Assembly: GCA_903860135.1 (NCBI GenBank)
Contig: CAIOPG010000014.1
Coordinates: 23,180-87,179, forward strand
Origin: Candidatus Omnitrophota bacterium
GTDB taxonomy: Bacteria; Omnitrophota; Gorgyraeia; Zapsychrales; Fredricksoniimonadaceae
Reading direction: 5' to 3'
DNA length: 64,000 nt
Under the pieces are notes generated by a model. The model searched no databases and had not been told where the DNA came from. It saw nothing but the letters and a program-made list of their open reading frames with translations. Of the stretch, positions 2,784 to 63,715 are shown one piece after another. The position numbers and the translations under genes are program-made. The stretch's first letter is position 1; every line of letters begins with the position of its first letter.

Positions 2784-5758
2784 TTCTTGTACTTTTTCCC
2801 GCTGCCACAAGGGCAATCATCATTGCGCCCGGTCTTGCGCTGACCCGCCGACGGCAAATGCGCCTCGGGCAGGCGGTATTCAGGCCGAGGTCTGGCTTCA
2901 GGAGCTTGATCGCCCGAGGAAGCCGCCTGCAATGTTCCGGTCATACCGGAAAAGTCATGGTGTACCAGCTCCTGCTGGGCGCCGAAAACACTGCGCACAT
3001 GCGGCTCGTGCTCAATGGGGCGAAGCTTGAAAATAAGTTCGGCAACATCCACATGGATGCTGTCAAACATAGCCCGGAACATATGGTACCCCTCCCGCTT
3101 GAACTCAACCAGCGGATCTCTTTGGCCCAGGGCGCGCAGACCCACGCCTTCTTTCAAATGATCCATGGCATAAAGATGTTCTTTCCACTTGGAATCAATG
3201 GTATGCAGAAGGAACATTCGCTCCAAATGCCTGATCTGGCTTATCCCCATATCCTGTTCTTTGGCCGCATACAAACGGGCTAGCTCAATGCCAACCATTT
3301 CAATGACCTCACCCACAGGGGCTGTTTCGAGCAGGGCACGATGCCTTTCAATGTCCAGCCCGAAGCGGCTATAAAGATACTGGATCAACCCCTCACCATC
3401 ACGCGCCTTGTTACCCTCTGTTATCAAATGACGACGGATCACTTCCTCAGCCGTTGACTGGAGGGCTTCCATGATCAGCTCCCGCGTGTCATCACCGTCA
3501 ATGATCGAACGGCGCATATTATAGATGACTTCGCGCTGGCGGTTCATGGTCGTATCATATTCCAGGAGCTGTTTGCGGATCTCAAAATTGTAATTCTCGA
3601 CGCGTTTCTGCGCCACTTCAAGCGCACGGCTCACCAGCGGCGACTCGATCATCTCGCCCTCGGCAAATCCAAAACGATCCATCATCATGCGGATACGGTC
3701 CCCCGCAAAGAGGCGCATGAGATCATCCTCGAGAGAAACATAGAAACGCGACGAACCCGGATCACCCTGACGGCCCGAACGGCCGCGCAGCTGATTGTCG
3801 ATACGGCGTGATTCATGACGCTCGGTACCAATGATGTGCAAGCCGCCCGCCGCTACAACCTTGTCATGCTCCTGCTTGACCTGGTCGCGGAACTGCCGGA
3901 TGAACTGATCCACCAGCTGTTCTTGCGGCAGGATCTCGGTGCGGTCTTTGGCTGCCGCCACGGTCTTTTCAGCCGCCAGCGCCCTGGCCATGAATTCCGC
4001 ATTGCCGCCGAGCATGATATCCGTCCCGCGGCCGGCCATATTGGTGGCGATCGTGACCGCCTGGTAACGCCCGGCCTGGGCCACGATCGACGCTTCAAGG
4101 CCGTGAAACTTGGCGTTCAAAACCTGATGCTTGACCCCTCGTGCTTTCAGAAGCCTGGCCAGGAATTCGGAACGTTCGATGGAAACGGTACCCACCAGGA
4201 CCGGTTGCCCTTTGGCATAACAGCCCTCGATCTCCTTGACCACGGCCTCATACTTTTCCTTGACGGTGCGAAAAATACAATCCGGATGATTGATACGGCT
4301 CAACGGTTTATTCGTCGGCAGAACAATGACTTCGAGGTTATAGATCTGTTTGAACTCGTTGGCTTCGGTGTAAGCTGTACCGGTCATGCCCGAAAGCTTC
4401 TTGTACATGCGGAAATAATTCTGGAACGTGATCGTGGCCAGCGTCTGGTTCTCGCGCTCGATCTTGATGCCCTCCCTGGCTTCGACCGCCTGGTGAAGCC
4501 CGTCCGACCAGCGCCGGCCCGGCATCATACGCCCGGTAAATTCATCCACAATGATAACCTTGCCGTCCTTGACCACATAATCCGTATCCAGATGGAAGAA
4601 TTCCTTGGCGCGCAGGGACTGCAGGATGTGATGGCGGTATTCCACGGTCTCCATATCATGAAGATTGGCGACCCCAAACATCTGCGCCCCTTTTTCCTCG
4701 CCAGCCTCGGTCAGGGAAATCGATTTCGCCTTCTCATCAGCGACATAATCATACCCCTTGCCCAAGTCCTCGCCGCGGTGCTTGGCATCGATCTCTTCCG
4801 CCTCGGTCACGCGCCGGCCTTTAAGTTCCAGCGAAATATTGTGCGCCCTGTAATACTTGTCGGTGGATTCCTCAGCTGGGCCTGAAATGATCAGCGGCGT
4901 CCGCGCCTCGTCCACAAGGATGCTGTCCACTTCGTCCACGACCGCAAAACAATGGCCGCGCTGAACCATCTCCTCCTTGAACATGACCATATTGTCACGC
5001 AGATAATCAAACCCGAATTCGTTGTTGGTCCCGTACGTGATGTCGTGCCCGTAAGCTTCCTTGCGCTGGGCAGGCTCCATGTCGTGCTGGATACACCCGA
5101 CGCTCAGGCCAAGGAATTCATACAGCGGTCCCATCCAGTCCCTGTCGCGTCTGGCCAGGTAATCGTTGACCGTCACCACATGCACACCATCGCCGGGCAG
5201 AGCGTTCAGATACGCCGGAAGGGTGGCCACCAGCGTCTTACCTTCGCCGGTGGTCATTTCCGCGATGTTGCCGTAATGGAGCGTCATGCCACCGATCATC
5301 TGCACATCGTAATGGCGCATACCCAATAGCCGCCGGCTCGCCTCACGCACCAGGGCAAACGCCTCGGGAAGAATATCGTTCAGGGCAAACTGCGTCGCTT
5401 TAAAAAGATCTTTCTCTGCCTGCTTGACCGCATCCCTTGTGCTTTGACGTTCATCGATATTCGCCGCATGCTGATGGGCGTCGATAGCCCTGGTCAGCGC
5501 GGCCTTCTCAACGGCGATCATGCCATAAAGGCGCGAGCGGAACTGAGGTGTGGCCCGTTGCAATTCCACATTCGAAAGCTTTTCCATCGTCGCTTCAAGC
5601 GCATTGATCCGGGCTACCGTCGGAGCCAGTCGCCTGACTTCGTGCACCGAAGGCAGCGGCGAATCCTCATGGATGTGCGCATTGACGGCAGGCTTCAGCC
5701 GGAGGATCGCGGCCCTGGCACTGCTGATAACAGGTTTACGGATGATCATATCGAGCAT
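2768..5758 (-). CDS. secA: Preprotein translocase ATPase SecA
   Basis: 996 aa with DEAD-like motor motifs (GEGKTLVATLPAYLNAL, TNNEFGFDYLRDNM). The C-terminal zinc-finger tail CPCGSGKKYKKCCG is diagnostic of SecA. Confidence 0.95.
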   Translation of the reverse strand: MLDMIIRKPVISSARAAILRLKPAVNAHIHEDSPLPSVHEVRRLAPTVARINALEATMEKLSNVELQRATPQFRSRLYGMIAVEKAALTRAIDAHQHAANIDERQSTRDAVKQAEKDLFKATQFALNDILPEAFALVREASRRLLGMRHYDVQMIGGMTLHYGNIAEMTTGEGKTLVATLPAYLNALPGDGVHVVTVNDYLARRDRDWMGPLYEFLGLSVGCIQHDMEPAQRKEAYGHDITYGTNNEFGFDYLRDNMVMFKEEMVQRGHCFAVVDEVDSILVDEARTPLIISGPAEESTDKYYRAHNISLELKGRRVTEAEEIDAKHRGEDLGKGYDYVADEKAKSISLTEAGEEKGAQMFGVANLHDMETVEYRHHILQSLRAKEFFHLDTDYVVKDGKVIIVDEFTGRMMPGRRWSDGLHQAVEAREGIKIERENQTLATITFQNYFRMYKKLSGMTGTAYTEANEFKQIYNLEVIVLPTNKPLSRINHPDCIFRTVKEKYEAVVKEIEGCYAKGQPVLVGTVSIERSEFLARLLKARGVKHQVLNAKFHGLEASIVAQAGRYQAVTIATNMAGRGTDIMLGGNAEFMARALAAEKTVAAAKDRTEILPQEQLVDQFIRQFRDQVKQEHDKVVAAGGLHIIGTERHESRRIDNQLRGRSGRQGDPGSSRFYVSLEDDLMRLFAGDRIRMMMDRFGFAEGEMIESPLVSRALEVAQKRVENYNFEIRKQLLEYDTTMNRQREVIYNMRRSIIDGDDTRELIMEALQSTAEEVIRRHLITEGNKARDGEGLIQYLYSRFGLDIERHRALLETAPVGEVIEMVGIELARLYAAKEQDMGISQIRHLERMFLLHTIDSKWKEHLYAMDHLKEGVGLRALGQRDPLVEFKREGYHMFRAMFDSIHVDVAELIFKLRPIEHEPHVRSVFGAQQELVHHDFSGMTGTLQAASSGDQAPEARPRPEYRLPEAHLPSAGQRKTGRNDDCPCGSGKKYKKCCGK

Positions 5759-18850: not shown

Positions 18851-21328
18851 TCACACCACAATGCTCACCAGCTTATTAGGAATCACAATGAACTTCCTGA
18901 CCTCTTTGCCGGCGATATGACGCTGGACAGCTTCATCAGCGAGGACGAGCGGGCGAAGGAGTTTTTCATCGGCGTCGCGCGGGACCACGAACTCGGCGCG
19001 CACCTTGCCATTGACCTGGGCGGCGATCCTGACCGTATCGGTCCTGAGCGCATCCTCGACATAGACCGGCCACGGGATAAAGGCAATGGATGTGACCGCC
19101 TTACCCATCATCTGCCAAAGCTCTTCGGCGGCATGCGGGATAAAGGGCGCTAAAAGAAGAACAGCGGTCTCAAGGGCTTCGTTGAGAATGGACTGCTTAT
19201 ACTGAATATCAATAGAGAATTTATATTTATCTACCGCGTTCATCAGAACCATCACCGCCGAGATCGCGGTATTGAACTTGAACCCGCCCTCCATGCTTTC
19301 CGTGACTTTCTTGACGGCCGTATGCCGTTCAAACTGCAACACTTTATCATCAGCGTCCATCACAGCACCCGCGGCGACATTGGTAGCCTTGTAACGCGTT
19401 TCCACAGCTCCCCAGACGCGATTAATAAACTTCCAGCTTCCCTCAAGCCCCGACGGATTCCATTCGAGCTGATCTTCCGGCGGGGCGACAAACAAAATAA
19501 ATAGACGCAAGGTGTCAGCGCCGAAACGGGCAATGACCTCGTCGGGATCAACGATGTTCCCGCGCGATTTGGACATGACCTCGCCGTCTTTTAATACCAT
19601 CCCCTGCGTCAACAGGCGGTCAAAGGGTTCATCGACCGCAACCAGGCCGATATCCCGGAGGAATTTCGTGAAGAACCTGGAATACAGCAAATGCAAGATC
19701 GCATGCTCGATGCCGCCGACATACTGATCAACGGGCATCCAGTAGGCCGCTTCTTTCACATCGAAGATTTCTTTATCATTATGCGCTGAGCAATAACGCA
19801 GGAAATACCATGACGAATCAAAGAATGTGGCCATCGTATCCGTCTCACGGCGCGCCGCTTTGCCGCACGCCGGGCATGCCACTTCAACGAAAGCCTTGAC
19901 CTTGGCCAAAGGACTGCCACCCTCCCCGGTGATCGGCGCATCGACCGGCAGTCGGACCGGCAATTGATCCACAGGCACCGGCACCACCCCGCACGCCGGG
20001 CAATAGATCATGGGGATCGGCGTACCCCAATAACGCTGACGGGAAATAAGCCAGTCGCGCAAGCGCCAGTGAACACTCACCCGCCCCATGCCCTTATCGC
20101 TCATCCAGGCCGCGATCTTGCCCTTAGCTTCCTCATTGGGTATGCCATCAAAATCACCCGAACCCGTCAACTTGCCCTCGCTCTCATGGGCCGCAGACAT
20201 TTGCTCCGGCGTCATACCCGGATGCGTCGCATCTTCAATCACCACCCGCATCGCCAGGCCATGCGCCCGCGCAAATTCAAAGTCACGCTGGTCATGCGTC
20301 GGGACCGCCATGATCGCACCCGTGCCATAAGCCATGAGGACATAATCCCCGATCCACACCGGGATCGTTGCCCCATTGACCGGATTAACCGCATATGCCC
20401 CCGTAAAAACACCTTCCTTGCGCTCCTCGCCGGACATGCGCGGTGATTTTGAAACCTGAATAGATTTGTCAATGAACGCCGTCACCGCCGCTTCCTGGGC
20501 AGTACCCAACGATAACTTGCGTGCCAGAGGATGCTCGGGTGCCAGCGTCACATACGTTGCCCCGAAAATAGTATCCGGGCGCGTCGTGAAGACCGTGATC
20601 ACATCGTCCCCGCCCTTGACCTTGAAAAATATCTCACAACCGTAACTCTTGCCGATCCAGTTTTCCTGCATGGCCACCACACGGGCAGGCCAATTATTTA
20701 GTGTCTTTAAATCCGCAAGAAGCTCCTCGGCATAATGCGTGATCTTCAGATACCACTGGTTCAGGTCTTTCTGAACAACCGCTTCTTTGCAACGCCAGCA
20801 GGCGCCGTCGATGACTTCTTCATTGGCCAGCGTCGTTGCACAGGACGGGCACCAGTTGACCGGCGAGCTTTTCTTGTACGCCAGCCCTTGCTCGACCATC
20901 TTCAAGAATATCCACTGGTTCCATTTATAATAGGTATCATCACACGTCGCGAACTCACGGTCCCAGTCATACGAAAAACCCATCTTCCGCAATCCCGCAC
21001 GCATGTCATCGATGCACTTGTACGTCCATTCCGACGGCGATGTGTTGCGTTTTATCGCCGCGTTCTCGGCCGGCTGGCCAAAGGCGTCATAGCCCATCGG
21101 ATGCAGGACATTGTGCCCGCGCATCATCTTGTACCGCGCGATAACATCCGTGATCGTATAATTACGCACATGCCCCATGTGGATCTTCCCCGACGGATAA
21201 GGGAACATCTCAAGGACATAATATTTCTTTTTAGCGGGATCCGGCACGGCCCTGAAAATCTTGTTCACTGCCCAGTAAGCCTGCCATTTTTCTTCAACAC
21301 GCCTGATATCATTGGTTGTATACGGCAT
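18851..21328 (-). CDS. leuS: Leucine--tRNA ligase
   Basis: HIGH (PYPSGKIHMGHVRNY) and KMSKS (VMSKS) motifs. Start taken at MPYTTNDIRR. Confidence 0.95.
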   Translation of the reverse strand: MPYTTNDIRRVEEKWQAYWAVNKIFRAVPDPAKKKYYVLEMFPYPSGKIHMGHVRNYTITDVIARYKMMRGHNVLHPMGYDAFGQPAENAAIKRNTSPSEWTYKCIDDMRAGLRKMGFSYDWDREFATCDDTYYKWNQWIFLKMVEQGLAYKKSSPVNWCPSCATTLANEEVIDGACWRCKEAVVQKDLNQWYLKITHYAEELLADLKTLNNWPARVVAMQENWIGKSYGCEIFFKVKGGDDVITVFTTRPDTIFGATYVTLAPEHPLARKLSLGTAQEAAVTAFIDKSIQVSKSPRMSGEERKEGVFTGAYAVNPVNGATIPVWIGDYVLMAYGTGAIMAVPTHDQRDFEFARAHGLAMRVVIEDATHPGMTPEQMSAAHESEGKLTGSGDFDGIPNEEAKGKIAAWMSDKGMGRVSVHWRLRDWLISRQRYWGTPIPMIYCPACGVVPVPVDQLPVRLPVDAPITGEGGSPLAKVKAFVEVACPACGKAARRETDTMATFFDSSWYFLRYCSAHNDKEIFDVKEAAYWMPVDQYVGGIEHAILHLLYSRFFTKFLRDIGLVAVDEPFDRLLTQGMVLKDGEVMSKSRGNIVDPDEVIARFGADTLRLFILFVAPPEDQLEWNPSGLEGSWKFINRVWGAVETRYKATNVAAGAVMDADDKVLQFERHTAVKKVTESMEGGFKFNTAISAVMVLMNAVDKYKFSIDIQYKQSILNEALETAVLLLAPFIPHAAEELWQMMGKAVTSIAFIPWPVYVEDALRTDTVRIAAQVNGKVRAEFVVPRDADEKLLRPLVLADEAVQRHIAGKEVRKFIVIPNKLVSIVV

Positions 21329-21335
21329 ACGATCC

Positions 21336-21881
21336 TTAGATTGAATTGATACAATAAAGTCGATTATCATCGAGTTTATAATAAAATGGCGCGACCTTCA
21401 CCTTCGGGTAACGCTTGCGCAGGCGCTGGGCCTCGCTGTAAACGAACTCGATCCCGTTCTCAATCTCGTGCATGAGCGCGAGGTTCATGAAATGTTCCTG
21501 CGCCCGTTCGCGCGTCCAGCCCGCCCTTTCGACAAGGCCGTCGATAAATTCCTGTTTGCGCGCCACAATATTGACCATGCCGCAATTGGTGTGCGCAATG
21601 AGCGCAATATGCCCGACCTTGCCGACGGCAATGGCATACGAAACCTTGAACTCACTGTAACGCAAATTTGCCCCGCCCGAACGGATGATAAACGCAAAAT
21701 TATCCGGCATATGCAGGTGCTTGCGATTATCCATGCACATCCCGATCAACAGCTTGGCCTCGGCATAAGTCTCAAACTTGCGGTCAAGGTTATGATACTC
21801 CAGCAAGTCCGCAAAAGGCGTCCGGCGCATTGCCGCAGGGATATCTTTTTTGGTATTTACAGGAACAAGTTTTAATTGCAT
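21336..21881 (-). CDS. Beta-class carbonic anhydrase
   Basis: Zinc-ligand motifs CMDNR and HTNCG at the spacing expected for beta-CA. Confidence 0.7.
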   Translation of the reverse strand: MQLKLVPVNTKKDIPAAMRRTPFADLLEYHNLDRKFETYAEAKLLIGMCMDNRKHLHMPDNFAFIIRSGGANLRYSEFKVSYAIAVGKVGHIALIAHTNCGMVNIVARKQEFIDGLVERAGWTRERAQEHFMNLALMHEIENGIEFVYSEAQRLRKRYPKVKVAPFYYKLDDNRLYCINSI

Positions 21882-28887: not shown

Positions 28888-28928
28888 TAAACCAAAAATC
28901 CTTCCCCCCGCGGCCGCGGAAAGAAGGA
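28888..28928 (-). terminator. pyr-operon leader attenuator terminator (GC-rich hairpin UCCUUCUUUCCGCGG/CCGCGGGGGGAAGGA followed by UUUUUGGUUU)
   Basis: The hairpin and U-run were read on the minus strand, 20-30 nt upstream of the pyrR SD (GGGAGG) and ATG. Confidence 0.7.
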
Positions 28929-28968
28929 TGTTGTTTGCCTCAATCGTTCTTATCTTCATAAGTTCCTT

Positions 28969-28994: not shown

Positions 28995-29037
28995 GCGTTT
29001 AAAGCTGAAAGAACTATACACGGCTACCGGATGGTTG

Positions 29038-32000
29038 TCAAGGAATGGGAATGGCACACTCCACCCCCGGCATGGCCCAAGACGCGGCGGGGGCCAGGGC
29101 AACGGGGAGACCGACATGCGGGATAAAGCCCTCGATGGGAATATTTACCAGGACTGGCATCATGCCGCTGACATCAGACGGACTTCCCTGTTCTACGATG
29201 ACTATACGACGGCTGTTAAAATCAATACCACCCGGCTTTAAGGTCGCGGTCTGGTCAGCCACAGCGACTCCCGCCCCCGCCAGGATCTCGGCGGCGCGCG
29301 GCGTAACCCCGGTGGGTGTGGGTGTGGTGTGCACCCCCGCCCGGCTCCAGCTTTCACCGGGATTCCACAACCGCCCGTCAAAACTGGCGCGCATGCTCAT
29401 CGTAACCCCGATAACCTTTGCCGCCAGCATCAGGCCAAACTGCCCGAGGGTGGCGTCAACAAGGAACTGTTCCTGCGCATCACGCATTTCAGGTACATTG
29501 ACCACCACATCTTCATGACCCGCCCGGCCTTTCAGCCAGGCCAATCCGCCCAGCGCACCGGTTTTAGGAAATGTCGCCTGTTTTAAACTCATCGCCCCGT
29601 GATGCTTCACATGCACCAGCGTAAGGTTCAGAAAAATATCACCGCGCGCCACATCCGATGCATGTTCCGTGACCAAATCTTTAGCCGGATCAGCTTCATA
29701 AATAGCCGCCGGTGACGTTGAGGCCAGTCCGTTGGCAAAAAGGCGCGAGAAGAAATTTCTTTGTGTCTTGGCAATGTGCGATGGCGCAGAAACAAACAAT
29801 TTACGTGCACCGATCCGCCCATTCTTGGGAAGCCCCCGCCAGCTGGAAACGCCTTCCGAAGCAAGAAATGGAAAAATATATTTAGTGAACAACCAGTCAA
29901 GCGAGGCTGTAACACCCCATAACCCTGCGACGGTCGGCACAGCAACCATCCCGCCGCTGGCCAGCGCGATCAATCCCGCCATGGGTGCTCCGATCTTAAA
30001 AACACTCCAGACAAAAATATCGCTCATTCTGTTAACCAGAAAAGGCCTCAGAAAATTCCAGCCCAAATTATCCCCGGTCGCCCGCAACGCTTTCCCCCAG
30101 GTATCCGGATAAACACGGCCCCGTTCATCCCGTCCAACGGACTCCCGCATATCTTCGCTTATTCCATCGACGATCAAGGTTGAAAGCCTCTCCAACTGCG
30201 ATGACGGCATCGTGACTTGCAGCGGATTCCCCGGCACGGCCAGAAGGTCTTTAGCCAGTTGAAGCACCAGATGGATCTGCTGGTACAAAAGCAACTGTTC
30301 GGAAATAACCGGCGCCTCGGAAGGATAAAAATCGCCTGTCAGGAATATCCGCCGGGTGAACGGATCGTCCATGCGCAACCCCTGCCCCAGGGCCGTATTC
30401 AATACCGAATCAATACGCGCTGTCATCCCGAAAACATTCTGCGGCTCAGCCAGTTTCATCAATAGCTTGGCCGACAAATTCGACGGGAACGTCGCGCCGG
30501 ACTTGCTGATCACAAGGACTACGGTATCCTGGCCGATCTTGAAATTGTCCGGAGCTTTAATGAAATCATTGGAATCCACACTTTCCACCTCGACCCCTGC
30601 CACAAGGCCGGAAAGGACAGGCTTCAGCATATCCGCAATCGTGTATGAATTGTCATATCCGACGATCAGCAGACGTGCCTTCCCGGACAACTTTTTAACC
30701 GCCACCAGCCGTTCGGCCAGATAAGCCGTAGACTGACGGTTAAATGAGCGCGCATTCCCCCACGCCAACCGGGCCTTGTTAAGGACGACCGGAATATCTT
30801 CAAGGTCCTCTTTCACCATTTCACGGCGGTTTTTGTATTTCACCGGCGGCGGAGCATAATACGGGTTCACCGTACCAAAAACATCCTGACGGACAGGATA
30901 GACCCTCGCCGTTACCTGCTCATCGGAAAGAACACCTTCTTCTTTTCTCCAAACACCCATCATGAATTTCCCCCGCGATGTGAATCGAAGGTCCGCCACC
31001 TCTCCGTCGCGCAAATGCAATACATCTGTCAAATGTTCCCCGTTGGGGCCTTGTGTTTTTAACGCACGCGGGTCAGAAGCAAAAGCAAAAACATCCAGGT
31101 CACGGTTAAATCCGATCGCCACATCCTGCTGGTCACACAAGACTGTCACACCGTCATCCCCGACCGACGCACGGACAAATACCCCGTAAGTCCCGTCAGA
31201 ACGCAAGGCAAGTTCTCTCACGGCATGTTCCCGGTCTGCGGTAAAAAACTTACGCACCATGGTCGCTATAAAGAGACCCCGCCCCTTGTCAGCATCACCA
31301 TAAACCTCCTGCCAGCGCGTTTCCCAACGGCTGAAAATCTGCCCTGCCACGGAATTGGCTTTAATTTCCTGACGCATCCGTATCGCCAGTAATTCCTCAA
31401 ATTTATCCAGGATCAGGCGCTGAGCTCCGGCACCGGCACGCCGGGCACTTTCTTCATCGGCAAACCAGCAGTCACGCCAATACTTTTCATCCCGCCCGGG
31501 CTTATATGACGGACGGACAAGATACGCCTTGGCTTCATCAAAAACACGCTCTATCACAGTGCCGGCCAGCACTTGCTCGTCCTTATACAGAAGATCTTCC
31601 TGAAGGCCTTTCCCATCAGGATGCCCGACCATATAATGCGCATAACGCAAGGAAGAATCCCAATCCCCCTGGGTCATGAAGAATCGCGCCTCCAGCGGCA
31701 ATACCGGAGAATCGCCCGGCGGCAACCCGTACAAGGCAGATTCAATCAAAGAGAATAAAATATTATCATAACCGATAAACTGCTTTCGCCAGACATGATC
31801 CAGTCCTTTAAACCGGCAGGACACCCGATTCCCCATCACATAGCCCGCCGCCTCCAGCTCCCGCAATATCCACCTGTAGTCCACCCGCGGATAATGTTCC
31901 GGCAACAGTTCCGCAATATGCTTCTTCAGATACCGCGCTGTCACCGGCCCTTCATAACGCATATACACCGCCGCCGGAAAAAACCGCCGCATCCCGGCAA

Positions 32001-34536
32001 CATCCATGACATCACCATCAGCATTCCCCATGCGCACGCCGTTATTATCCCCGTTATGCCCGGCGACCACCTGCACCGGCAACATGGCGCTGACAAGATT
32101 GCCCTCCACGTCAAAATTATAGATCTTCTTCACTTCCATGGGGCTCTTGTGCGGGTGCGCCGCATTCTGAACGATCTCCCCGCCGGTAGCAAAACGCACA
32201 TGGGCGACAAATCCGGCCACCGCGCCGCGTCCAAAATTATAAAGAGACCTCGCCTTAAACGGGAGCCTTGCCACAGCCTTCTTCACCATCGTACCGACCA
32301 CATCAGGATAAAAAACAAAACTTCCATTCCTGAAAAAAAGACCCCTCTTGTTCTTTAACACCTTAACGCCATGCAAAACCTCAGCCTTTTTATTCGCCCT
32401 GGCAAACGTGAACATCCCCATCTGCTGTCCGCCCCGGTCTTCGAGCGTCCCTGCCATCGATTCCATCCATCCGGTAAACTTGCCACCCGTATCCCGGACC
32501 GGCTCACCTTGCGGCGTGAATTTGAGCAAGCCTAAAATGCCGCAACGCAGAATACCCTGCTCTTGCGGCGACCCTGACCCTAGCCAACTGAGCAAAAGCC
32601 CACCGATCATGGCCCCCGCCTGCCAGATGCCGCCAAGGTCTGCCGTCCAAAACCCCATAAGAAGCGCATTAAACAAATTGTTCATCGTAAATAATGATTT
32701 AATACCCTTCTTGATACCTACTGCCGGCAAGGTTCCGCCGGCGCCAGAAATAGTGCCATCCAATTGTTTCTCGGCGCGCTTTAACAAATCATCCATCGCC
32801 ATCAGCTCGGTAGCCGGCGGTTCTCCTTTAGCATCTGCCACCATCTGACGCATCGCTTCATGAAGATCAACCGTATCTAGAATCTCTGTGTGTTTAACAG
32901 GCTTAACTTCAGAAACAACATTTTTCCCCCGACGAAAAACACCCCATCCGACAGCACCTAAAGCACCCAGGACCCCGGCCGCAATCCAGGCTGTCTTATA
33001 ATCTGCCCTGCCCGGCACCCCCGACTGCCCGCCGGATAAGTCCTGCGGTATAGACGCCTTGATCAACACGGTTGTCCCTGCAGCCACATGCCTCACATCC
33101 TGACCGCCGGACACACGGCTAACCACACCATCTTTTCCCCACATAGCTCCGGCCAACGACGATTGACTGTACGCCTGCGGATCAACTTCCTTAAAAGCCA
33201 CCCGCATCTGCTCGATGGCCTGCCCGTACGTTTCACCGGCCGCCAGCTGGACCAGGGTCGATCGCCCGTCAGCCGACGGGGTAAATACAGCGGCCTCCGA
33301 TGCCTGTGGCAGGGAGGCAAGCCCGCCCAGCGCTAAAAGCACCGCCAGAACGCCTGTCTTTAAGAAACGCCGCAAACGCCCTGTTTTCCCCGGCAAGGCA
33401 GAAGCTGGTTTTGCAGGCATCAGCTCCAGCGGCGCACGGACCATATCCATTCCGACATCGATCACGGCGCTTCCGCTCGTCTCAACATAAATCCCCGGGG
33501 CTGATACCCCACTCAAAACAACCCCGCCAGAAAAATATTTCCGCGGCAACAGCCCTCCATCGACAGGGTCTTCTTCTTCACGTATATACGCGTACACCCC
33601 GTCGTGCATGGAACGGACATAGCGGTTAAATAATTTCTCGCGCCAGGCGAGCGGCACATCATCGATCCCCGCCACCTTGTTACGCCCGACATACCCCGTC
33701 CCCAATGCCCCCTGCGCCCAATGCCGCTTGTACCACGTCGCCAGGACAAGGGCGGTATACACCTGCCGGACCGGCGCGAACAATCTGTCCTCATTCACCT
33801 GCCGGCGCAATTCAGGCAGGATGATTTCACGAAAAACATCCGTATAGATCCGGGAAACACCTTCTGCGCCGGACGTCCCGGCATGACGCCATGCTTGATA
33901 ATCCGCATCGGTCAAAACATCCAGGGCGGTGTTGGTGATAAAAACGCTGTCCGCGCGTGTATACACCCCCGCTGCTGCCGGAACAATCCAAACCCTGTTG
34001 GCCATATCCATGGGCACATCACGGGTCCCGTATTTTTCATACACCCGACGATACACCTCTTTCCAGAACCGCGCCCCCAGAGGCTTTTCCGGGTACGTCA
34101 GCGTGGCCGCCGCCTGTTTGAGCCAGTAATCCTGCTCGAGCAGGACCTTGCCCATGTCCGTGGTCGCAAACACATCCGGGATGATCCTGTCTTTCTCATA
34201 CGGCGACAAATTGACCCACAAATCCTCATCAGGCACCGCCAAAGACGCCACAAAGAAACGGCTCAGCCGTGTGATCGCGTGCTGAAGGACGCTCCCCGAC
34301 AATCCGCTATCCCCTTTATCGACCAGAAGATCAAACTTAAACGGCTCTTTCGCGTAAACCCGTATCCCTTTCATCATCAATGGTTTAAATGCGGGCGACG
34401 GTGCCACCATCAACCCTGATACAGGCATATCCGCCAGCAGCTGCGCACGGGCCGACCCCGTCCCACCGATCGTGTTCAAGGCAAACGCCATCAAAACGAT
34501 CCAGCAAAGCCCCCTCAGCCGCGTAAAATATCCCAT
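29038..34536 (-). CDS. Giant (~1,830 aa) membrane protein with an embedded GlmS-like core (class-II glutamine amidotransferase-like domain plus SIS domain) and large unknown periplasmic and C-terminal domains
   Basis: Uninterrupted ORF. Start MGYFTRLRGLCW has a GGGAGG Shine-Dalgarno and encodes a signal peptide. Hydrophobic segments lie at about aa 435-450, 566-585, 665-694 and 1566-1595 (ORF numbering from 34659). aa 706-880 parallel the local glmS and purF N-termini: RCGILGLL (compare MCGIIGYVGG), HVRFATGGEIVQNAAHPH (compare HTRWATHG...SHPH), VVAGHNGDNNG (compare VVHNGIIEN). aa 1328-1420 parallel GlmS SIS1: LLIVGYDNSYTIA...VEVESVDSNDF...VVLVISKSGATFPSNL. Confidence 0.8.
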   Translation of the reverse strand: MGYFTRLRGLCWIVLMAFALNTIGGTGSARAQLLADMPVSGLMVAPSPAFKPLMMKGIRVYAKEPFKFDLLVDKGDSGLSGSVLQHAITRLSRFFVASLAVPDEDLWVNLSPYEKDRIIPDVFATTDMGKVLLEQDYWLKQAAATLTYPEKPLGARFWKEVYRRVYEKYGTRDVPMDMANRVWIVPAAAGVYTRADSVFITNTALDVLTDADYQAWRHAGTSGAEGVSRIYTDVFREIILPELRRQVNEDRLFAPVRQVYTALVLATWYKRHWAQGALGTGYVGRNKVAGIDDVPLAWREKLFNRYVRSMHDGVYAYIREEEDPVDGGLLPRKYFSGGVVLSGVSAPGIYVETSGSAVIDVGMDMVRAPLELMPAKPASALPGKTGRLRRFLKTGVLAVLLALGGLASLPQASEAAVFTPSADGRSTLVQLAAGETYGQAIEQMRVAFKEVDPQAYSQSSLAGAMWGKDGVVSRVSGGQDVRHVAAGTTVLIKASIPQDLSGGQSGVPGRADYKTAWIAAGVLGALGAVGWGVFRRGKNVVSEVKPVKHTEILDTVDLHEAMRQMVADAKGEPPATELMAMDDLLKRAEKQLDGTISGAGGTLPAVGIKKGIKSLFTMNNLFNALLMGFWTADLGGIWQAGAMIGGLLLSWLGSGSPQEQGILRCGILGLLKFTPQGEPVRDTGGKFTGWMESMAGTLEDRGGQQMGMFTFARANKKAEVLHGVKVLKNKRGLFFRNGSFVFYPDVVGTMVKKAVARLPFKARSLYNFGRGAVAGFVAHVRFATGGEIVQNAAHPHKSPMEVKKIYNFDVEGNLVSAMLPVQVVAGHNGDNNGVRMGNADGDVMDVAGMRRFFPAAVYMRYEGPVTARYLKKHIAELLPEHYPRVDYRWILRELEAAGYVMGNRVSCRFKGLDHVWRKQFIGYDNILFSLIESALYGLPPGDSPVLPLEARFFMTQGDWDSSLRYAHYMVGHPDGKGLQEDLLYKDEQVLAGTVIERVFDEAKAYLVRPSYKPGRDEKYWRDCWFADEESARRAGAGAQRLILDKFEELLAIRMRQEIKANSVAGQIFSRWETRWQEVYGDADKGRGLFIATMVRKFFTADREHAVRELALRSDGTYGVFVRASVGDDGVTVLCDQQDVAIGFNRDLDVFAFASDPRALKTQGPNGEHLTDVLHLRDGEVADLRFTSRGKFMMGVWRKEEGVLSDEQVTARVYPVRQDVFGTVNPYYAPPPVKYKNRREMVKEDLEDIPVVLNKARLAWGNARSFNRQSTAYLAERLVAVKKLSGKARLLIVGYDNSYTIADMLKPVLSGLVAGVEVESVDSNDFIKAPDNFKIGQDTVVLVISKSGATFPSNLSAKLLMKLAEPQNVFGMTARIDSVLNTALGQGLRMDDPFTRRIFLTGDFYPSEAPVISEQLLLYQQIHLVLQLAKDLLAVPGNPLQVTMPSSQLERLSTLIVDGISEDMRESVGRDERGRVYPDTWGKALRATGDNLGWNFLRPFLVNRMSDIFVWSVFKIGAPMAGLIALASGGMVAVPTVAGLWGVTASLDWLFTKYIFPFLASEGVSSWRGLPKNGRIGARKLFVSAPSHIAKTQRNFFSRLFANGLASTSPAAIYEADPAKDLVTEHASDVARGDIFLNLTLVHVKHHGAMSLKQATFPKTGALGGLAWLKGRAGHEDVVVNVPEMRDAQEQFLVDATLGQFGLMLAAKVIGVTMSMRASFDGRLWNPGESWSRAGVHTTPTPTGVTPRAAEILAGAGVAVADQTATLKPGGIDFNSRRIVIVEQGSPSDVSGMMPVLVNIPIEGFIPHVGLPVALAPAASWAMPGVECAIPIP

Positions 34537-34760
34537 CACAAACCTCCCGTAATAAAAATGCCCAACGCTTTCCTTCCGACGGAAAACGCTGGGCCTCATT
34601 GTCCAGAAAATAGAACAGCCCAATTCGCCGTTAAGGGAGAATTGGGCCTCTGCGTCCAACCTGACGCCGCATCAACAACACTGTCCATGCGGCACGTCAA
34701 GACTTCTTAAATATACCCGATGAAACTGCGCGTGTCAAGGGGGAGAGCTATTTACTAAAC

Positions 34761-35444: not shown

Positions 35445-37277
35445 TTATTCAACAGTCACAGACTTGGCAAGGTTGCGCGGCTGATCCACGTCGCAGCCGC
35501 GGTTGACCGCAATGTAATACGCCAAAAACTGCAACGGCAGTGCCGCCAGGAGCGGTGTCAGTAATTTGTGGGTCGACGGGATCGAAATAACATGCGTGGC
35601 ATGATGCGCGATAGACTGATCGCCCTCGGTGGCAATGACAATGACCTTGCCTTTGCGCGACAGGATCTCCTGCATATTGGAGATCATCTTTTCATAAAAG
35701 TCCGACTGCGGGGCAAGGCAAACAACCGCACGATACTCGTCGATGAGCGCGATGGGACCATGTTTCATCTCGCCTGCCGCATACCCTTCAGCCGGGATAT
35801 ACGAAATTTCCTTGAGCTTCAAGGCCCCTTCGAGCGCCGAAGGATAATTGATATTGCGCCCCAGATACAGGAAACACCCAAAATGAGAGAAATCCTTGGC
35901 CACCGCCTCGATGGCCGCATGACCTTTGAGGATCTGGCGATACAAAGCCGGAATTTCCGCCAGTTCCTTAACCAGGAACGCACGACTTTTCGGCGCCAGG
36001 CTCTTGTGCGCCCAGGCGAGCTTCAGCGCCAGGATATAAAACATCATGAGCTGAGCCGTATACGCCTTGGTCGACGCCACCCCGATCTCGGGGCCTGCAT
36101 GCGTATAAAGGACACCGTCCGCTTCGCGCGCCAGCGACGACCCGATCACATTGCAGATCGCAACGATTCTGGCACCCAGAGCCTTGGCCGCACGCACCGC
36201 CGCCAGCGTATCGGCCGTTTCACCCGACTGGCTGACCGCGATAATAAGCGTCTTTTTATCAACCAGCAAAGTCCGGTAACGGAATTCGCTCGATACATCC
36301 ACCTCTACCGGGACTCGCGCCAGTTCCTCGATAATATAGCGCCCGACCAGCCCCGCATGATACGCCGTGCCGCACGCCACGATCTTGATGCGCGTCATCC
36401 CTTTAAGGACTGCATCCGAAAGCCCCAGACCCTCGAGCACCGAGGCACCGCCCTTCAGGCGCGCCTTGAGCATCTTGGCCAGCACCTCCGGCTGTTCGTG
36501 AATTTCCTTGAGCATGAAATGCGGATACCCCTGCTTCTGGGCCGCATCCATCTGGAACGTCACACGGTCAACCTTCGGCTTGCGGGCTTTCCCGTCGAAC
36601 GACATGACCTTGACACCATCGCGGCGCAAGACCGCGATCTCGCCATCCTTTAGATAAATAACATCGCGCGTATGCCGGATGATCGCCGGCACATCCGAAG
36701 CAATAAAATTTTCGCCCTTCCCCACACCAATAATCAGCGGACTACCAACACGCGCCGCCACAAGTGTCGCCGGGTCATCGGAAGACATCACGCCAATGGC
36801 AAAGGCACCTTCCAAATCCTTGATCGCCCGCTGTACCGCTTTGACAAGGTCACCGCCAAAATATTCCTGCACCAGATGGACAATAACTTCCGTATCCGTT
36901 TCAGAAAGGAATTTGTACCCCTTGCGGATGAGCGCGGCCTTGAGTGTTTGGTAATTTTCAATGATACCGTTATGGACAACGGCAATGGTGTGTTCCGCAT
37001 TAGGATGCGGATGTGAATTCTTGCGGCAAGGAGCGCCGTGCGTGGCCCAGCGGGTATGCGCGATCCCTACATGCGCTGACGGCAGAGGGTTGCCGGCAAT
37101 ATGCTCTTCCAAGCAACGGATCTTGCCCTGCTCCTTGCGGATCTCGAGCTTTCCGCCCGCCACCGGGAGAAGGCAAACACCACTCGAATCATATCCGCGA
37201 TATTCGAGGTTCTTCAACCCTTCAAGAAGGAGCGGAAGCGCCTCTTTGCCGCCGACATATCCGATGATCCCGCACAT
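35445..37277 (-). CDS. glmS: Glutamine--fructose-6-phosphate aminotransferase
   Basis: MCGIIGYVGG N-terminal nucleophile. Two SIS domains. C-terminal ...LAKSVTVE. Confidence 0.95.
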   Translation of the reverse strand: MCGIIGYVGGKEALPLLLEGLKNLEYRGYDSSGVCLLPVAGGKLEIRKEQGKIRCLEEHIAGNPLPSAHVGIAHTRWATHGAPCRKNSHPHPNAEHTIAVVHNGIIENYQTLKAALIRKGYKFLSETDTEVIVHLVQEYFGGDLVKAVQRAIKDLEGAFAIGVMSSDDPATLVAARVGSPLIIGVGKGENFIASDVPAIIRHTRDVIYLKDGEIAVLRRDGVKVMSFDGKARKPKVDRVTFQMDAAQKQGYPHFMLKEIHEQPEVLAKMLKARLKGGASVLEGLGLSDAVLKGMTRIKIVACGTAYHAGLVGRYIIEELARVPVEVDVSSEFRYRTLLVDKKTLIIAVSQSGETADTLAAVRAAKALGARIVAICNVIGSSLAREADGVLYTHAGPEIGVASTKAYTAQLMMFYILALKLAWAHKSLAPKSRAFLVKELAEIPALYRQILKGHAAIEAVAKDFSHFGCFLYLGRNINYPSALEGALKLKEISYIPAEGYAAGEMKHGPIALIDEYRAVVCLAPQSDFYEKMISNMQEILSRKGKVIVIATEGDQSIAHHATHVISIPSTHKLLTPLLAALPLQFLAYYIAVNRGCDVDQPRNLAKSVTVE

Positions 37278-37752: not shown

Positions 37753-38574
37753 CTACTTTTTCAACAATGGCTCTATGGCTGACTTCCATCCGGTCAGATC
37801 ACGCACCCGGACTTTCTTGCCATTCAGGAAATACGTAGGGGTACCGCGCACATCCGCCTTCTTGGCTTCTTCCATATCTGCCGCGATCTTCTTTTCAAAC
37901 ACAGCATCCTGATCTTTCAGATCCTTTAAGAACTGATCCACCTTAAGCCCCGCCTTAACCGCAAGCTCCTTATATTTAGCATCGCTTAACTCTTTGGAAT
38001 TCTCCATCAACAACGCGACCATGGGATAATATTTACCCTGCAACCCGGCCGCAAGCGCCGCCTTGGCCGCCGGGCGCGCATGCTGATGGAAAGGCAAAGG
38101 ATAATTTTTCAATACCACTTTCACATCTTTGGGAAACGCCTTGATGACTTCCTGCAATACCGGATGAAACACGGCGCAATACGGGCACTGAAAATCCGAG
38201 AACTCGACGATCGTAACCGGCGCATCAGGATTGCCGTTGACATACGAATCCCCCACCGGAATGTCATAAACACGGTCAAAGTCTTCCTGCGGTTCCGACG
38301 GTACTGCCGATGAGGGACGGTTCTTTAACAACTTGATTTCCGTCTCAAGCGCCGTCATGCGCGTCAGTATGGCCGTCAAATTCCCGGCATTCTCTGTCGT
38401 CGCCTTGTTCATATCCTTCTGCGTCTGCGCCAGCTCTCTAACCGCCGCCACCATGGGTTGCATGGCTGTCCCGACCGACAGCGTCACACAAAAAATAATA
38501 GTCGCCACAAACAAAAGCCCCATCAACACCATCGCCGTAAACCTGACCGTTTTATTACCGCATTCCATACACAC
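37753..38574 (-). CDS. DsbA-family thiol:disulfide oxidoreductase (membrane-anchored)
   Basis: N-terminal TM, coiled-coil region, then a thioredoxin fold with a CPYC active site. Confidence 0.75.
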   Translation of the reverse strand: MCMECGNKTVRFTAMVLMGLLFVATIIFCVTLSVGTAMQPMVAAVRELAQTQKDMNKATTENAGNLTAILTRMTALETEIKLLKNRPSSAVPSEPQEDFDRVYDIPVGDSYVNGNPDAPVTIVEFSDFQCPYCAVFHPVLQEVIKAFPKDVKVVLKNYPLPFHQHARPAAKAALAAGLQGKYYPMVALLMENSKELSDAKYKELAVKAGLKVDQFLKDLKDQDAVFEKKIAADMEEAKKADVRGTPTYFLNGKKVRVRDLTGWKSAIEPLLKK

Positions 38575-63400: not shown

Positions 63401-63715
63401 TTTTTCCCAAAGCTCAACAGCAAGATTCAGCCCCGTCTGGCCGCCCAATGTCGGCAGGATGGCATCAGGCCGCTCCTTGGCGATAATCTGTTCTAGGAAC
63501 TCAACGTTCAGCGGTTCAATGTATGTTTGGTCGGCGGTTTCAGGGTCGGTCATGATCGTGGCTGGATTAGAATTGACCAGCACGATAGAGTAACCTTCCT
63601 CACGCAGGGCCTTGCACGCCTGAGTGCCGGAATAATCGAATTCGCAAGCCTGTCCGATAACGATCGGACCAGAACCAATCAGGAGGATCTTCTTGATGTC
63701 GGTGCGTTTAGGCAT
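60461..63715 (-). CDS. carB: Carbamoyl-phosphate synthase large subunit
   Basis: 1084 aa. Duplicated ATP-grasp halves and an MGS-like C-terminus. Confidence 0.95.

What the first reader, a model, noticed from the sequence alone, without database searches (positions are those of the whole stretch)
29038..34536. GlmS-like amidotransferase/SIS core embedded in a ~1,830-aa membrane protein, two genes from canonical glmS
A single uninterrupted ORF encodes, in order: a signal peptide, a ~380-aa predicted periplasmic domain, three hydrophobic segments, and then a cytoplasmic region whose motifs track the GlmS N-terminal Ntn-amidotransferase domain. The tracking motifs are RCGILGLL, HVRFATGG...NAAHPH and AGHNGDNNG, and they align motif-for-motif with the local glmS and purF. 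About 330 aa later comes a SIS domain that aligns block-for-block with GlmS SIS1 (LLIVGYDNSYTIA / VEVESVDSNDF / VVLVISKSGATFPSNL / ARIDSVLNTAL). Two more TM helices and a ~280-aa C-terminal domain follow. In every known class-II amidotransferase the catalytic Cys must be the free N-terminal residue. Here it is internal (aa ~706), directly after a hydrophobic segment. So this is either an autoproteolytically matured enzyme tethered to the membrane, or a non-catalytic sugar-phosphate or glutamine sensing module built on the GlmS scaffold. I do not recognise a described family with this architecture. Its placement between the pyr operon and rsmI-glmS suggests a link to envelope amino-sugar supply. 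This is the strongest candidate in the window for an undescribed function.
Basis: partly seen in the sequence, partly recalled or inferred. Interest (0 to 1): 0.85.

Follow-up and report, generated by a model that had tools for sequence, protein, structure and literature searches.

The report
Membrane-embedded GlmS-like amidotransferase, Omnitrophota
A 1,832-residue protein of an uncultured Omnitrophota bacterium contains a highly diverged copy of the sugar-amine enzyme GlmS whose catalytic cysteine is buried 664 residues into the chain. The enzyme part sits inside an N-terminal domain plus C-terminal tail that well over a thousand other proteins of this phylum share, so it is a real, unannotated variant of a known enzyme type.

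Summary
The ORF is on the minus strand (29038..34536), uninterrupted and 1,832 aa long. The same sequence occurs on 4 public contigs, and full-length orthologues come from independent datasets.

Across 35 homologues down to about 25% identity, 17 core positions are invariant. Thirteen of them lie in the five class-II amidotransferase motifs, including Cys665-Gly.

The Cys is always internal and follows a roughly 40-aa hydrophobic stretch, also in relatives with unrelated N-termini. Best reading (about 0.45): a membrane-held, cytoplasm-facing proenzyme that needs cleavage before Cys665. It would transfer glutamine nitrogen to a phosphorylated acceptor bound by the SIS domain.

Not supported:
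- a functional link to glmS or pyr. The gene has its own promoter, and the neighbourhood is kept only in close relatives.

New:
- The N-terminal ~310-aa domain and a C-terminal ~60-aa 'GGIDL...GFxPVI' tail form a frame shared with more than 1,400 Omnitrophota proteins carrying unrelated enzyme domains.
- Pfam, NCBIfam and the papers I searched do not describe the core family or the frame.

The membrane topology and the identity of the C-terminal domain remain unresolved.

The parts
34710..34738 (-). sigma70-like promoter (TTGACA-17-TATATT) upstream of the big ORF
   Evidence: 11 of 12 matches. This is a consensus match only; function was not tested.
34560..34594 (-). 14-bp stem-loop followed by ATTTTTATTA in the 5' leader, just upstream of the GGGAGG ribosome-binding site
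   Evidence: No Rfam family matches there. Role unknown.
29038..34536 (-). complete ORF, 1,832 aa plus stop
   Evidence: The exact sequence is on 4 public contigs.
34444..34536 (-). aa 1-31: N-terminal signal-peptide-like segment ending in the conserved A-x-A|Q
   Evidence: A31 and Q32 conserved in at least 90% of sequences; hydrophobicity.
33502..34443 (-). aa 32-345: N-module shared with more than 1,400 Omnitrophota proteins (WVNLSPYE, DY..KQ, RQ..ILATWYK and YFSGG motifs)
33298..33375 (-). aa 388-413: hydrophobic segment H1. It resembles an internal signal peptide: RLRRFLK, then a hydrophobic core, then ASEAA.
   Evidence: The family consensus has A-x-A-A after it.
33037..33294 (-). aa 415-500: small domain that weakly resembles LysM
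32932..32997 (-). aa 514-535: hydrophobic segment H2, followed by RRGK
32581..32703 (-). aa 612-652: moderately hydrophobic 41-aa stretch directly before the Cys, probably a helical hairpin
   Evidence: The equivalent stretch in P0001-P0004 is 44-52 aa long.
32542..32544 (-). codon of Cys665, the predicted N-terminal nucleophile after cleavage
   Evidence: C665-G666 is invariant in 35 of 35 sequences. In the model the first beta-strand starts right after it and the 10 residues before it are disordered.
30967..32544 (-). aa 665-1190: class-II (Ntn) glutamine amidotransferase domain
31201..32001 (-). aa ~846-1112: mainly helical insertion inside the GATase domain. It contains the conserved G941-D942 (GlmS Asp123 motif). 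GlmS has no such insertion.
   Evidence: Secondary structure of the model. hhalign resumes at aa 1092, aligned to GlmS residue 134.
30037..30828 (-). aa ~1237-1500: one SIS domain with the phosphate loop S-K-S-G-A-T, plus trailing helices
29899..30018 (-). aa 1507-1546: 40-aa hydrophobic stretch, probably a membrane hairpin
   Evidence: Present in most of the 35 homologues.
29257..29898 (-). aa 1547-1760: C-terminal domain of the GlmS-like subfamily, identity unknown
   Evidence: No Pfam hit. hhalign against GlmS SIS2 is not significant (E 0.64).
29059..29241 (-). aa 1766-1826: C-terminal tag PGGIDFN...IEGFIPHVGLPVALAP, shared with the N-module proteins
   Evidence: 104 of the 120 top hits have GGI[DN][LFMIV] within the last 120 aa.

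Best explanation
The ORF encodes a membrane-embedded, highly diverged paralogue of GlmS. It sits as 'cargo' inside an Omnitrophota-specific frame made of an N-terminal module and a C-terminal tag.

Shown:
- The core has the class-II (Ntn) glutamine amidotransferase fold followed by one SIS domain, in GlmS order.
- The nucleophile Cys-Gly is invariant or nearly so across the family. So are the Arg-Gly motif, the glutamine-carboxylate Arg (GlmS R73), the oxyanion Asn-Gly (N98-G99) and the glutamine-amine Asp (D123).
- The SIS phosphate loop S-x-S-G-x-T is kept in most members.

Inferred:
- Class-II amidotransferases need the Cys alpha-amino group free. The protein is therefore a proenzyme that must be cut between residue 664 and Cys665.
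- The cut is most likely an intramolecular N-to-S acyl shift, as in other Ntn hydrolases. The residue before the Cys is not conserved, which argues against a sequence-specific protease.
- Cleavage would leave an N-terminal fragment (N-module, LysM-like domain, membrane segments). It would also leave a C-terminal enzyme held at the membrane by the hydrophobic hairpins that flank the core.
- Charge distribution around the hydrophobic segments places the core and the C-terminal domain on the cytoplasmic side.
- There the enzyme would hydrolyse glutamine and pass ammonia to a phosphorylated acceptor, probably a sugar phosphate, bound by the SIS domain.
- The acceptor and product are unknown. The enzyme is not the housekeeping GlmS, which is encoded two genes away.
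For: Fold:
- AF2 model pLDDT 90.4.
- Foldseek: GlmS 2j6h at E 3e-13.

Sequence:
- Family profile against PDB: GFAT1 at E 1.6e-6 with two collinear stretches.
- hhalign aligns aa 1092-1186 to GlmS 134-220.

Conservation:
- Only 17 of 846 core positions are invariant in 35 sequences. Thirteen fall in the motifs C-G, R-G..G, H-x-R....G, N-G-D and G-D.
- The SKSGAT loop is conserved in most members.

The internal Cys after hydrophobic segments is a family trait. It also occurs in relatives without the Omnitrophota N-module (CGN.G / HYRYGTSSAP / HNGDFD / GDSPK).

The model leaves the 10 residues before the Cys disordered and starts strand 1 right after it.

Topology: Lys+Arg counts are high before H1, after H2, before the pre-Cys stretch and around the 1507-1546 hairpin.

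A canonical glmS is present in the same window (816 bits), so this protein is an extra paralogue.

Propeptide removal before Cys1 is established for B. subtilis PurF and for glutamate synthase (my own knowledge, not checked here).
Against: - No evidence of cleavage exists. A 664-residue 'propeptide' has no precedent among amidotransferases.
- The side of the membrane is not settled. The N-terminus looks like a cleavable Sec signal, which puts the N-module outside. H1 then has its positive flank on the wrong side unless there is one more membrane crossing. Crude counts of hydrophobic segments before the Cys vary from 1 to 6 among homologues.
- Many frame paralogues have no hydrophobic segment after the signal peptide (38 of 84). 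This suggests the frame exports its cargo.
- The GlmS isomerase catalytic residues (K485, E488, H504, K603) lie in SIS2 and the C-tail. These parts could not be identified here.
- Some family members have a degenerate phosphate loop.
Confidence: 0.45

Rival explanations
1. Exported cargo or effector. The N-module and C-tag frame is an export, sorting or surface-display system, and the GlmS-like core works outside the cytoplasm. That could be in the periplasm, on the cell surface, or in or on a prey or host cell of this presumably predatory or parasitic phylum. Ntn self-cleavage would then release the cargo.
For: - The N-terminus has Sec-signal features with a conserved A-x-A|Q.
- 38 of 84 frame paralogues carry no further hydrophobic segment, yet carry kinase, HATPase, GNAT, methyltransferase and similar domains.
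- Type II secretion genes lie directly downstream of the 66%-identical orthologue.
- The literature reports secretion and pilus genes next to Omnitrophota giant genes and proposes host-directed roles (10.1101/2023.11.21.568195, 10.64898/2026.06.07.730766, PMC10066038).
Against: - Glutamine and sugar phosphates are cytoplasmic metabolites.
- All 35 GlmS-like members have hydrophobic segments between the N-module and the core, and most have a hairpin after SIS. These would stop Sec transfer.
- Flank charges favour a cytoplasmic core.
- No secretion genes lie next to the gene in this window.
Confidence: 0.22
2. Non-catalytic sensor or pseudoenzyme. The uncleaved GlmS scaffold binds glutamine and/or a sugar phosphate and signals through the membrane segments.
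For: - The Cys is internal, so the unprocessed protein cannot be an Ntn catalyst.
Against: - The invariant residues are exactly the catalytic set: nucleophile, oxyanion hole and substrate-binding Arg and Asp. Pseudoenzymes usually lose these.
- No recognisable output domain is present.
Confidence: 0.15
3. Operon-linked helper of GlmS or pyrimidine metabolism that supplies envelope amino sugars, as its position between rsmI-glmS and the pyr operon might suggest.
For: The same glmS-rsmI-[big gene] order occurs in a 66%-identical relative.
Against: - The gene has its own promoter-like site, and pyrR has its own promoter and leader hairpin.
- The downstream genes differ even in the close relative.
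- Relatives at 48% identity and below lie next to unrelated genes: purH and mur ligase, Nramp, xanthine-dehydrogenase-type genes.
Confidence: 0.05
4. Artefact: a mis-assembled or frameshift-fused ORF.
For: None found.
Against: - The identical 1,832-aa product is on 4 contigs.
- Orthologues with the same architecture cover 97-99% of the length in NCBI, JGI, ENA and Logan data.
- GC content is even across the gene.
Confidence: 0.01

Closest known systems
GlmS / GFAT (glutamine--fructose-6-phosphate aminotransferase, TIGR01135)
   Same: - Same domain order, class-II GATase then SIS.
- Conserved equivalents of Cys1, Arg26-Gly27, Arg73, Thr76, His86, Asn98-Gly99 and Asp123.
- Conserved SIS phosphate loop S-x-S-G-x-T.
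   Different: - The Cys is residue 665 of the ORF, not residue 2.
- Sequence identity is about 15-22%, and the TIGR01135 score is 20.5 bits against a cut-off of 418.
- The GATase domain carries a ~250-aa helical insertion.
- Only one SIS domain could be shown. The isomerase residues of SIS2 and the C-tail were not found.
- Hydrophobic hairpins flank the core, and the protein has N- and C-terminal extra modules.
- The genome also has a normal glmS.
Class-II amidotransferases made with a propeptide (B. subtilis PurF, glutamate synthase large subunit) and self-processing Ntn hydrolases in general
   Different: Known propeptides are about 11-36 residues (my own knowledge). Here the preceding part is 664 residues with folded domains and membrane segments. 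Cleavage has not been shown.
SIS-domain phosphosugar isomerases and binding proteins (KpsF/API, GmhA, FraB/FrlB, MurR/RpiR)
   Different: Here the SIS domain is fused behind a GATase domain and followed by a membrane hairpin. Pfam SIS scores below its cut-off (14.8 against 25 bits).
C-terminal sorting tags with an N-terminal signal peptide (type IX secretion CTD, PEP-CTERM and similar)
   Same: The concept only: a conserved short C-terminal element plus an N-terminal export signal framing highly variable cargo.
   Different: - There is no sequence or profile similarity.
- A ~310-aa conserved N-module is also part of the frame.
- No cognate machinery has been identified.
- This comparison is an analogy from memory, not a test.

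Membership tests
Class-II (Ntn, PurF-type) glutamine amidotransferase domain | Four-layer alpha-beta-beta-alpha Ntn fold | tested here: met
Class-II (Ntn, PurF-type) glutamine amidotransferase domain | Nucleophilic Cys at the start of strand 1, plus the oxyanion Asn-Gly and the substrate-binding Arg and Asp | tested here: met
   C665-G666, R781, N828-G829 and D942 are invariant in 35 sequences.
Class-II (Ntn, PurF-type) glutamine amidotransferase domain | The Cys is the free N-terminal residue of the mature protein | not testable with these tools
   In the ORF the Cys is residue 665, and in homologues it lies at 600-1079. Whether cleavage occurs needs protein data.
Class-II (Ntn, PurF-type) glutamine amidotransferase domain | Match to Pfam GATase_2/6/7 above the gathering score | tested here: not met
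   No GATase hit for the query or for 5 homologues.
GlmS (TIGR01135 / PRK00331) | Curated HMM score above the cut-off | tested here: not met
   20.5 bits against 418; 18.2 bits against 381.
GlmS (TIGR01135 / PRK00331) | GATase domain followed by an isomerase domain made of two SIS subdomains plus a C-tail with the catalytic Lys | tested here: inconclusive
   GATase plus one SIS are shown. For the C-terminal domain aa 1547-1760, hhalign against GlmS SIS2 gives E 0.64.
GlmS (TIGR01135 / PRK00331) | Sugar-phosphate loop S347-Q-S349-G-E-T352 | tested here: met
   The query has S-K-S-G-A-T. The loop is conserved in most of the 35 sequences and degenerate in a few (P0022, P0023, P0035).
GlmS (TIGR01135 / PRK00331) | Soluble cytosolic ~600-aa enzyme starting Met-Cys | tested here: not met
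   The protein has 1,832 aa with at least 4 hydrophobic segments. The listed top 150 of 169 representative relatives show no free-standing, full-length core: most are long proteins with the core internal, and the short entries cover only part of it.
SIS domain (PF01380) | Flavodoxin-like SIS fold with a phosphate loop | tested here: met
Omnitrophota N-module / C-tag frame (not described in Pfam, NCBIfam or the papers searched) | Signal peptide plus the ~310-aa module with WVNLSPYE, ILATWYK and YFSGG motifs | tested here: met
   40-48% identity over aa ~8-340 to P0037-P0120.
Omnitrophota N-module / C-tag frame (not described in Pfam, NCBIfam or the papers searched) | C-terminal GGID[LFM]...GF.P.I..I.P tag within the last ~120 aa | tested here: met
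   The query has it at aa 1769-1815. 104 of the 120 hits carry it.
LysM domain | beta-alpha-alpha-beta fold and a match to the LysM profile | tested here: inconclusive

The most novel reading that the evidence does not exclude
The N-module plus 'GGIDL...GFxPVI' C-tag is a phylum-wide, undescribed sorting, export or membrane-tethering system of Omnitrophota. It frames hundreds of different cytoplasmic-type enzymes. In the GlmS-like subfamily the Ntn amidotransferase doubles as a built-in self-cleaving switch: it separates the frame's head from an enzyme that is thereby activated at the membrane, or after delivery to a host cell.
Probability: 0.2. Interest if true: 0.85.

Novelty: new variant of a known kind. 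Interest (0 to 1): 0.62.

Why it matters
Class-II amidotransferases are textbook examples of enzymes that need a free N-terminal cysteine. This family has about 170 sequence clusters in which that cysteine always lies hundreds of residues inside a membrane protein. It would be either the largest 'propeptide' known for the class or a new non-Ntn use of the scaffold. Both outcomes can be tested with one expression construct.

The family also gives a concrete, enzyme-like handle on the many long, unannotated membrane proteins of Omnitrophota, an uncultured and probably host-dependent phylum. The shared N-module and C-tag frame, with more than 1,400 proteins and at least 592 genomic matches, points to an unrecognised organising principle for those proteins. 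Routine annotation calls all of them 'hypothetical'.

Tried and rejected
- Pfam and NCBIfam on the whole protein, on its N-module, LysM-like part and C-terminal domain, and on 9 homologues. Only sub-threshold SIS and glmS hits appeared.
- Idea that aa 1547-1760 is the second SIS subdomain of GlmS. hhalign against GlmS SIS2, GlmS SIS1 and the family's own SIS1 gave E 0.35-0.73, so it is not supported by sequence.
- Larger alignments for the N-module model failed on the size limit and with an internal error. A 49-sequence alignment was used instead.
- Rfam on the whole window found only 4 tRNAs. Nothing matched the 5' leader of the gene or the pyrR leader.
- Topology from hydrophobicity and the positive-inside rule. 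It is internally consistent from H1 onward but conflicts with the Sec-like N-terminus, and segment counts vary among homologues. Left unresolved.
- HExxH metalloprotease idea for the stretch upstream of the Cys. The spacing is inconsistent (HExxH in some homologues, HExxxH in others), and the stretch is absent from the query and its closest relatives. Not pursued.
- Lipoprotein-type Cys: there is no lipobox before the Cys.
- Source names for frame-less relatives: none are on record.
- Literature searches for the frame and for membrane GlmS-like proteins found no description.
Full report
1. THE OBSERVATION

The ORF is real, but it lies on the minus strand. The longest frame is 29038..34659, starting at a TTG. 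The ATG at 34536 is preceded by GGGAGG and gives 1,832 aa.

Exactly this product is recorded in NCBI and ENA on four contigs, the longest 104,917 bp. A cluster mate is labelled 'hypothetical protein, partial [Candidatus Omnitrophota bacterium]'. Orthologues with 57-66% identity and the same end-to-end architecture come from NCBI, JGI, ENA and Logan assemblies. GC content is even across the gene. An assembly or frameshift artefact can be dismissed.

The Cys is residue 665 counted from the ATG.

The neighbours are as described, all on the minus strand:
- trmB, a D-Ala-D-Ala carboxypeptidase and a DsbA-like protein;
- glmS at 35445-37277 (816 bits to TIGR01135);
- rsmI;
- the big ORF;
- pyrR, pyrB, pyrC, pyrK and pyrD.

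A purF-type ORF starts at 60397.

2. IS THE CORE GlmS-LIKE?

Routine profiles barely detect it. Pfam SIS scores E 0.025, below its cut-off, and there is no GATase hit. NCBIfam glmS scores 20.5 bits against a cut-off of 418. Five homologues gave the same picture.

Sensitive methods agree on the homology.
- A profile of 35 family members finds human GFAT1 in the PDB sequences at E 1.6e-6. It has two collinear stretches, GATase residues 16-119 and SIS residues 306-442.
- hhalign adds aa 1092-1186 aligned to GlmS 134-220.
- An AlphaFold2 model of aa 655-1500 is confident (pLDDT 90.4, pTM 0.90).
- Foldseek ranks E. coli GlmS and human GFAT1 first, at E about 1e-13 to 1e-11.

The modelled region contains one SIS domain. 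The GATase domain carries a helical insertion of about 250 aa (roughly aa 846-1112) that GlmS lacks.

3. CONSERVATION POINTS TO CATALYSIS

The 35 sequences go down to about 25% identity. Only 17 of the 846 core positions are invariant: C665-G666, R701-G702, G707, H779, R781, G786, N828-G829-D830, G941-D942, F1098, G1118, S1154 and Q1385.

Thirteen of them lie in the five signature motifs of class-II amidotransferases. By the alignment and the known GlmS residues, these correspond to:
- Cys1;
- Arg26-Gly27;
- the H-T-R73-W-A-T76 block;
- Asn98-Gly99, the oxyanion hole;
- Asp123, which binds the glutamine amino group.

The SIS phosphate loop reads S-K-S-G-A-T (GlmS has S-Q-S-G-E-T). It is kept in most members and degenerate in a few. 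This pattern fits an enzyme, not a decayed scaffold.

4. THE INTERNAL CYS IS A FAMILY TRAIT

In all 35 homologues the Cys lies at residue 600-1079. It follows a hydrophobic stretch within about 5-20 residues, and the residue before it is not conserved.

A full phmmer scan of 1.84 billion representative proteins with the core found only 169 relatives at E up to 1e-3, 96 of them at E up to 1e-10. Among the 150 listed, most are long proteins with the core internal. The short entries cover only part of it, so no full-length free-standing form was seen.

Of the 132 newly retrieved representatives, 118 lack the Omnitrophota N-module. They still show hydrophobic segments, then 'CGN.G', 'RGEQAAG', 'HYRYGTSSAP..ETHPH', 'HNGDFD' and 'GDSPK'. 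The membrane-to-Cys junction is therefore older than the frame and probably matters for function.

The AF2 model leaves the ten residues before the Cys disordered and starts strand 1 right after it, as in mature Ntn enzymes.

5. THE REST OF THE PROTEIN: A PHYLUM-WIDE FRAME

The first homology search returned at least 1,450 hits. Beyond the roughly 36 full-architecture relatives, the hits share only aa ~8-340 with the query, at 37-46% identity. They carry quite different middle parts: HATPase, Ser/Thr kinase plus PP2C, GNAT, SAM methyltransferases, metallophosphoesterase, glycosyltransferase, subtilase, NDK and others.

An alignment of 49 of them also revealed a shared C-terminal element, 'GGID[LFM] ...~30 aa... 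GF.P.I..I.P...L..LG'. It is present within the last 120 residues of 104 of the 120 hits, and in the query at aa 1769-1815.

The four loci that also encode the core are labelled Omnitrophota, except one labelled 'uncultured Planctomycetales'.

The papers I could search describe Omnitrophota long and giant proteins as mostly signal-peptide and/or TM proteins with regulatory and sugar-metabolism Pfam modules, flanked by secretion and pilus genes. I found no description of this frame or of a membrane GlmS-like protein.

6. TOPOLOGY IS UNRESOLVED

The N-terminus looks like a cleavable Sec signal, with a basic n-region, a hydrophobic core and a conserved A-x-A|Q.

Flank charges give a consistent path from H1 onward:
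- H1 (aa 388-413, itself like a signal peptide, with A-x-A after it) runs in to out;
- the LysM-like domain lies outside;
- H2 (514-535, followed by RRGK) runs out to in;
- the 41-aa pre-Cys stretch and the 40-aa stretch at 1507-1546 form hairpins with cytoplasmic flanks.

That path puts the GlmS-like core and the C-terminal domain in the cytoplasm, where glutamine and sugar phosphates are. It conflicts with an exported N-module unless there is one more crossing.

Two further points add to the uncertainty. First, 38 of 84 frame paralogues have no hydrophobic segment after the signal peptide. Their 'cytoplasmic-type' cargo would then be exported. Second, crude counts of segments before the Cys vary from 1 to 6. 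I rate a cytoplasmic core at about 0.65.

7. GENOMIC CONTEXT

A near-consensus promoter (34738-34710) and a stem-loop with a U-tract (34594-34560) precede the gene. pyrR has its own promoter (29041-29013), which overlaps the big ORF's stop codon, and a leader hairpin. No Rfam family matches either leader.

The glmS-(DUF5674)-rsmI-(170 aa)-[big gene] order recurs in a 66%-identical relative, but there gspD/E/F/G follow downstream. Relatives at 48%, about 37% and about 28% identity lie among unrelated genes. The proximity to glmS is therefore local synteny, not evidence of function.

8. MECHANISM AND RIVALS

Best explanation (0.45): a proenzyme that becomes a membrane-held Ntn glutamine amidotransferase after cleavage before Cys665, with a SIS-bound phosphorylated acceptor. 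The fold, the motifs and the family-wide junction are shown. Cleavage, sidedness, substrate and product are inferred.

Rivals:
- exported cargo or effector of the frame (0.22);
- uncleaved ligand sensor (0.15);
- operon partner of glmS or pyr (0.05);
- artefact (0.01).

The remainder is 'something else'.

9. VERDICT

On membership: the protein has the class-II GATase and SIS folds and catalytic signatures. It fails the curated GlmS and Pfam thresholds, lacks a demonstrable second SIS domain and C-tail, and is not soluble. I therefore file it as a new variant derived from GlmS, not as a GlmS.

The family and the frame are absent from the annotation libraries and the literature I could reach. 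Interest is 0.62. The most novel reading still open is that the frame is a new sorting or tethering system with Ntn self-cleavage as a switch (probability about 0.2).

Noticed in passing
window 33502-34443 (-) and 29059-29241 (-); P0037-P0120: The N-terminal ~310-aa module and the C-terminal 'GGIDL...GFxPVIxNIxP' tag co-occur in more than 100 of the 120 top hits. They frame unrelated enzyme domains: HATPase, kinase plus PP2C, GNAT, methyltransferases, metallophosphoesterase, glycosyltransferase, subtilase and NDK. At least 592 pattern matches occur in GTDB representatives. There is no Pfam or NCBIfam model and no PDB fold neighbour.
   Followed up: partly
P0037-P0120: 38 of 84 frame paralogues have no hydrophobic segment after the signal peptide. 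Cofactor-dependent 'cytoplasmic' enzymes would then be exported whole, which is unexplained.
   Followed up: partly
window 33298-33375 (-), aa 388-413: The internal hydrophobic segment looks like a second Sec signal peptide: RLRRFLK, a hydrophobic core, then ASEAA. The family consensus has A-x-A-A after it. This could mean a second signal-peptidase cut or an in-to-out anchor.
   Followed up: no
homologues P0005, P0008-P0035, about 120-135 aa upstream of the Cys; absent from the query and P0001-P0004: Most of the more distant homologues have a conserved 'HE(x)xxH' motif between hydrophobic segments just upstream of the Cys. The spacing is inconsistent (HExxH or HExxxH), so a zincin protease is not established.
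   Followed up: partly
P0138-P0175 and others: A sister clade of 1,900-2,900-aa proteins has the same TM-then-Cys GlmS-like core (CGN.G, HYRYGTSSAP, HNGDFD, GDSPK). It lacks the Omnitrophota N-module and tag. Its taxonomy is unknown, because the sources give no names.
   Followed up: partly
window 34560-34594 (-) and 34710-34738 (-): A near-consensus promoter is followed by a ~165-nt leader. The leader ends in a 14-bp hairpin with a U-tract immediately before the ribosome-binding site of the big ORF. This may be an attenuator. No Rfam family matches it.
   Followed up: no
window 28898-28929 (-) and 29013-29041 (-): The pyrR promoter-like site overlaps the stop codon of the big ORF. A 14-bp hairpin with a T-tract lies in the pyrR leader, as expected for PyrR-type attenuation. 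Rfam reported nothing there.
   Followed up: no
L001 16099-25910: In the 66%-identical relative, the genes downstream of the orthologue are a 422-aa protein (weak BNR hit), a 161-aa ORF, then gspD, gspE, gspF, gspG-like pseudopilins and pilM (type II secretion or type IV pilus).
   Followed up: no
L006 118-4953: A 1,611-aa ORF without any Pfam hit ends 4 nt inside the start of the GlmS-like orthologue (P0012). It may be translationally coupled. I did not check it for the N-module.
   Followed up: no
window 37753-38574 (-): A DsbA-like protein matches the 'Rcas_1661 family thioredoxin-like (seleno)lipoprotein' model below its cut-off (64.8 against 190 bits).
   Followed up: no
window 2768-5758, 18851-21370, 60461-63715, ~59015-60397 (all -): The other long ORFs of the window are housekeeping genes: secA, leuS, carB and a purF-type amidotransferase starting MCGIIG. 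The window holds only one copy of the N-module.
   Followed up: yes
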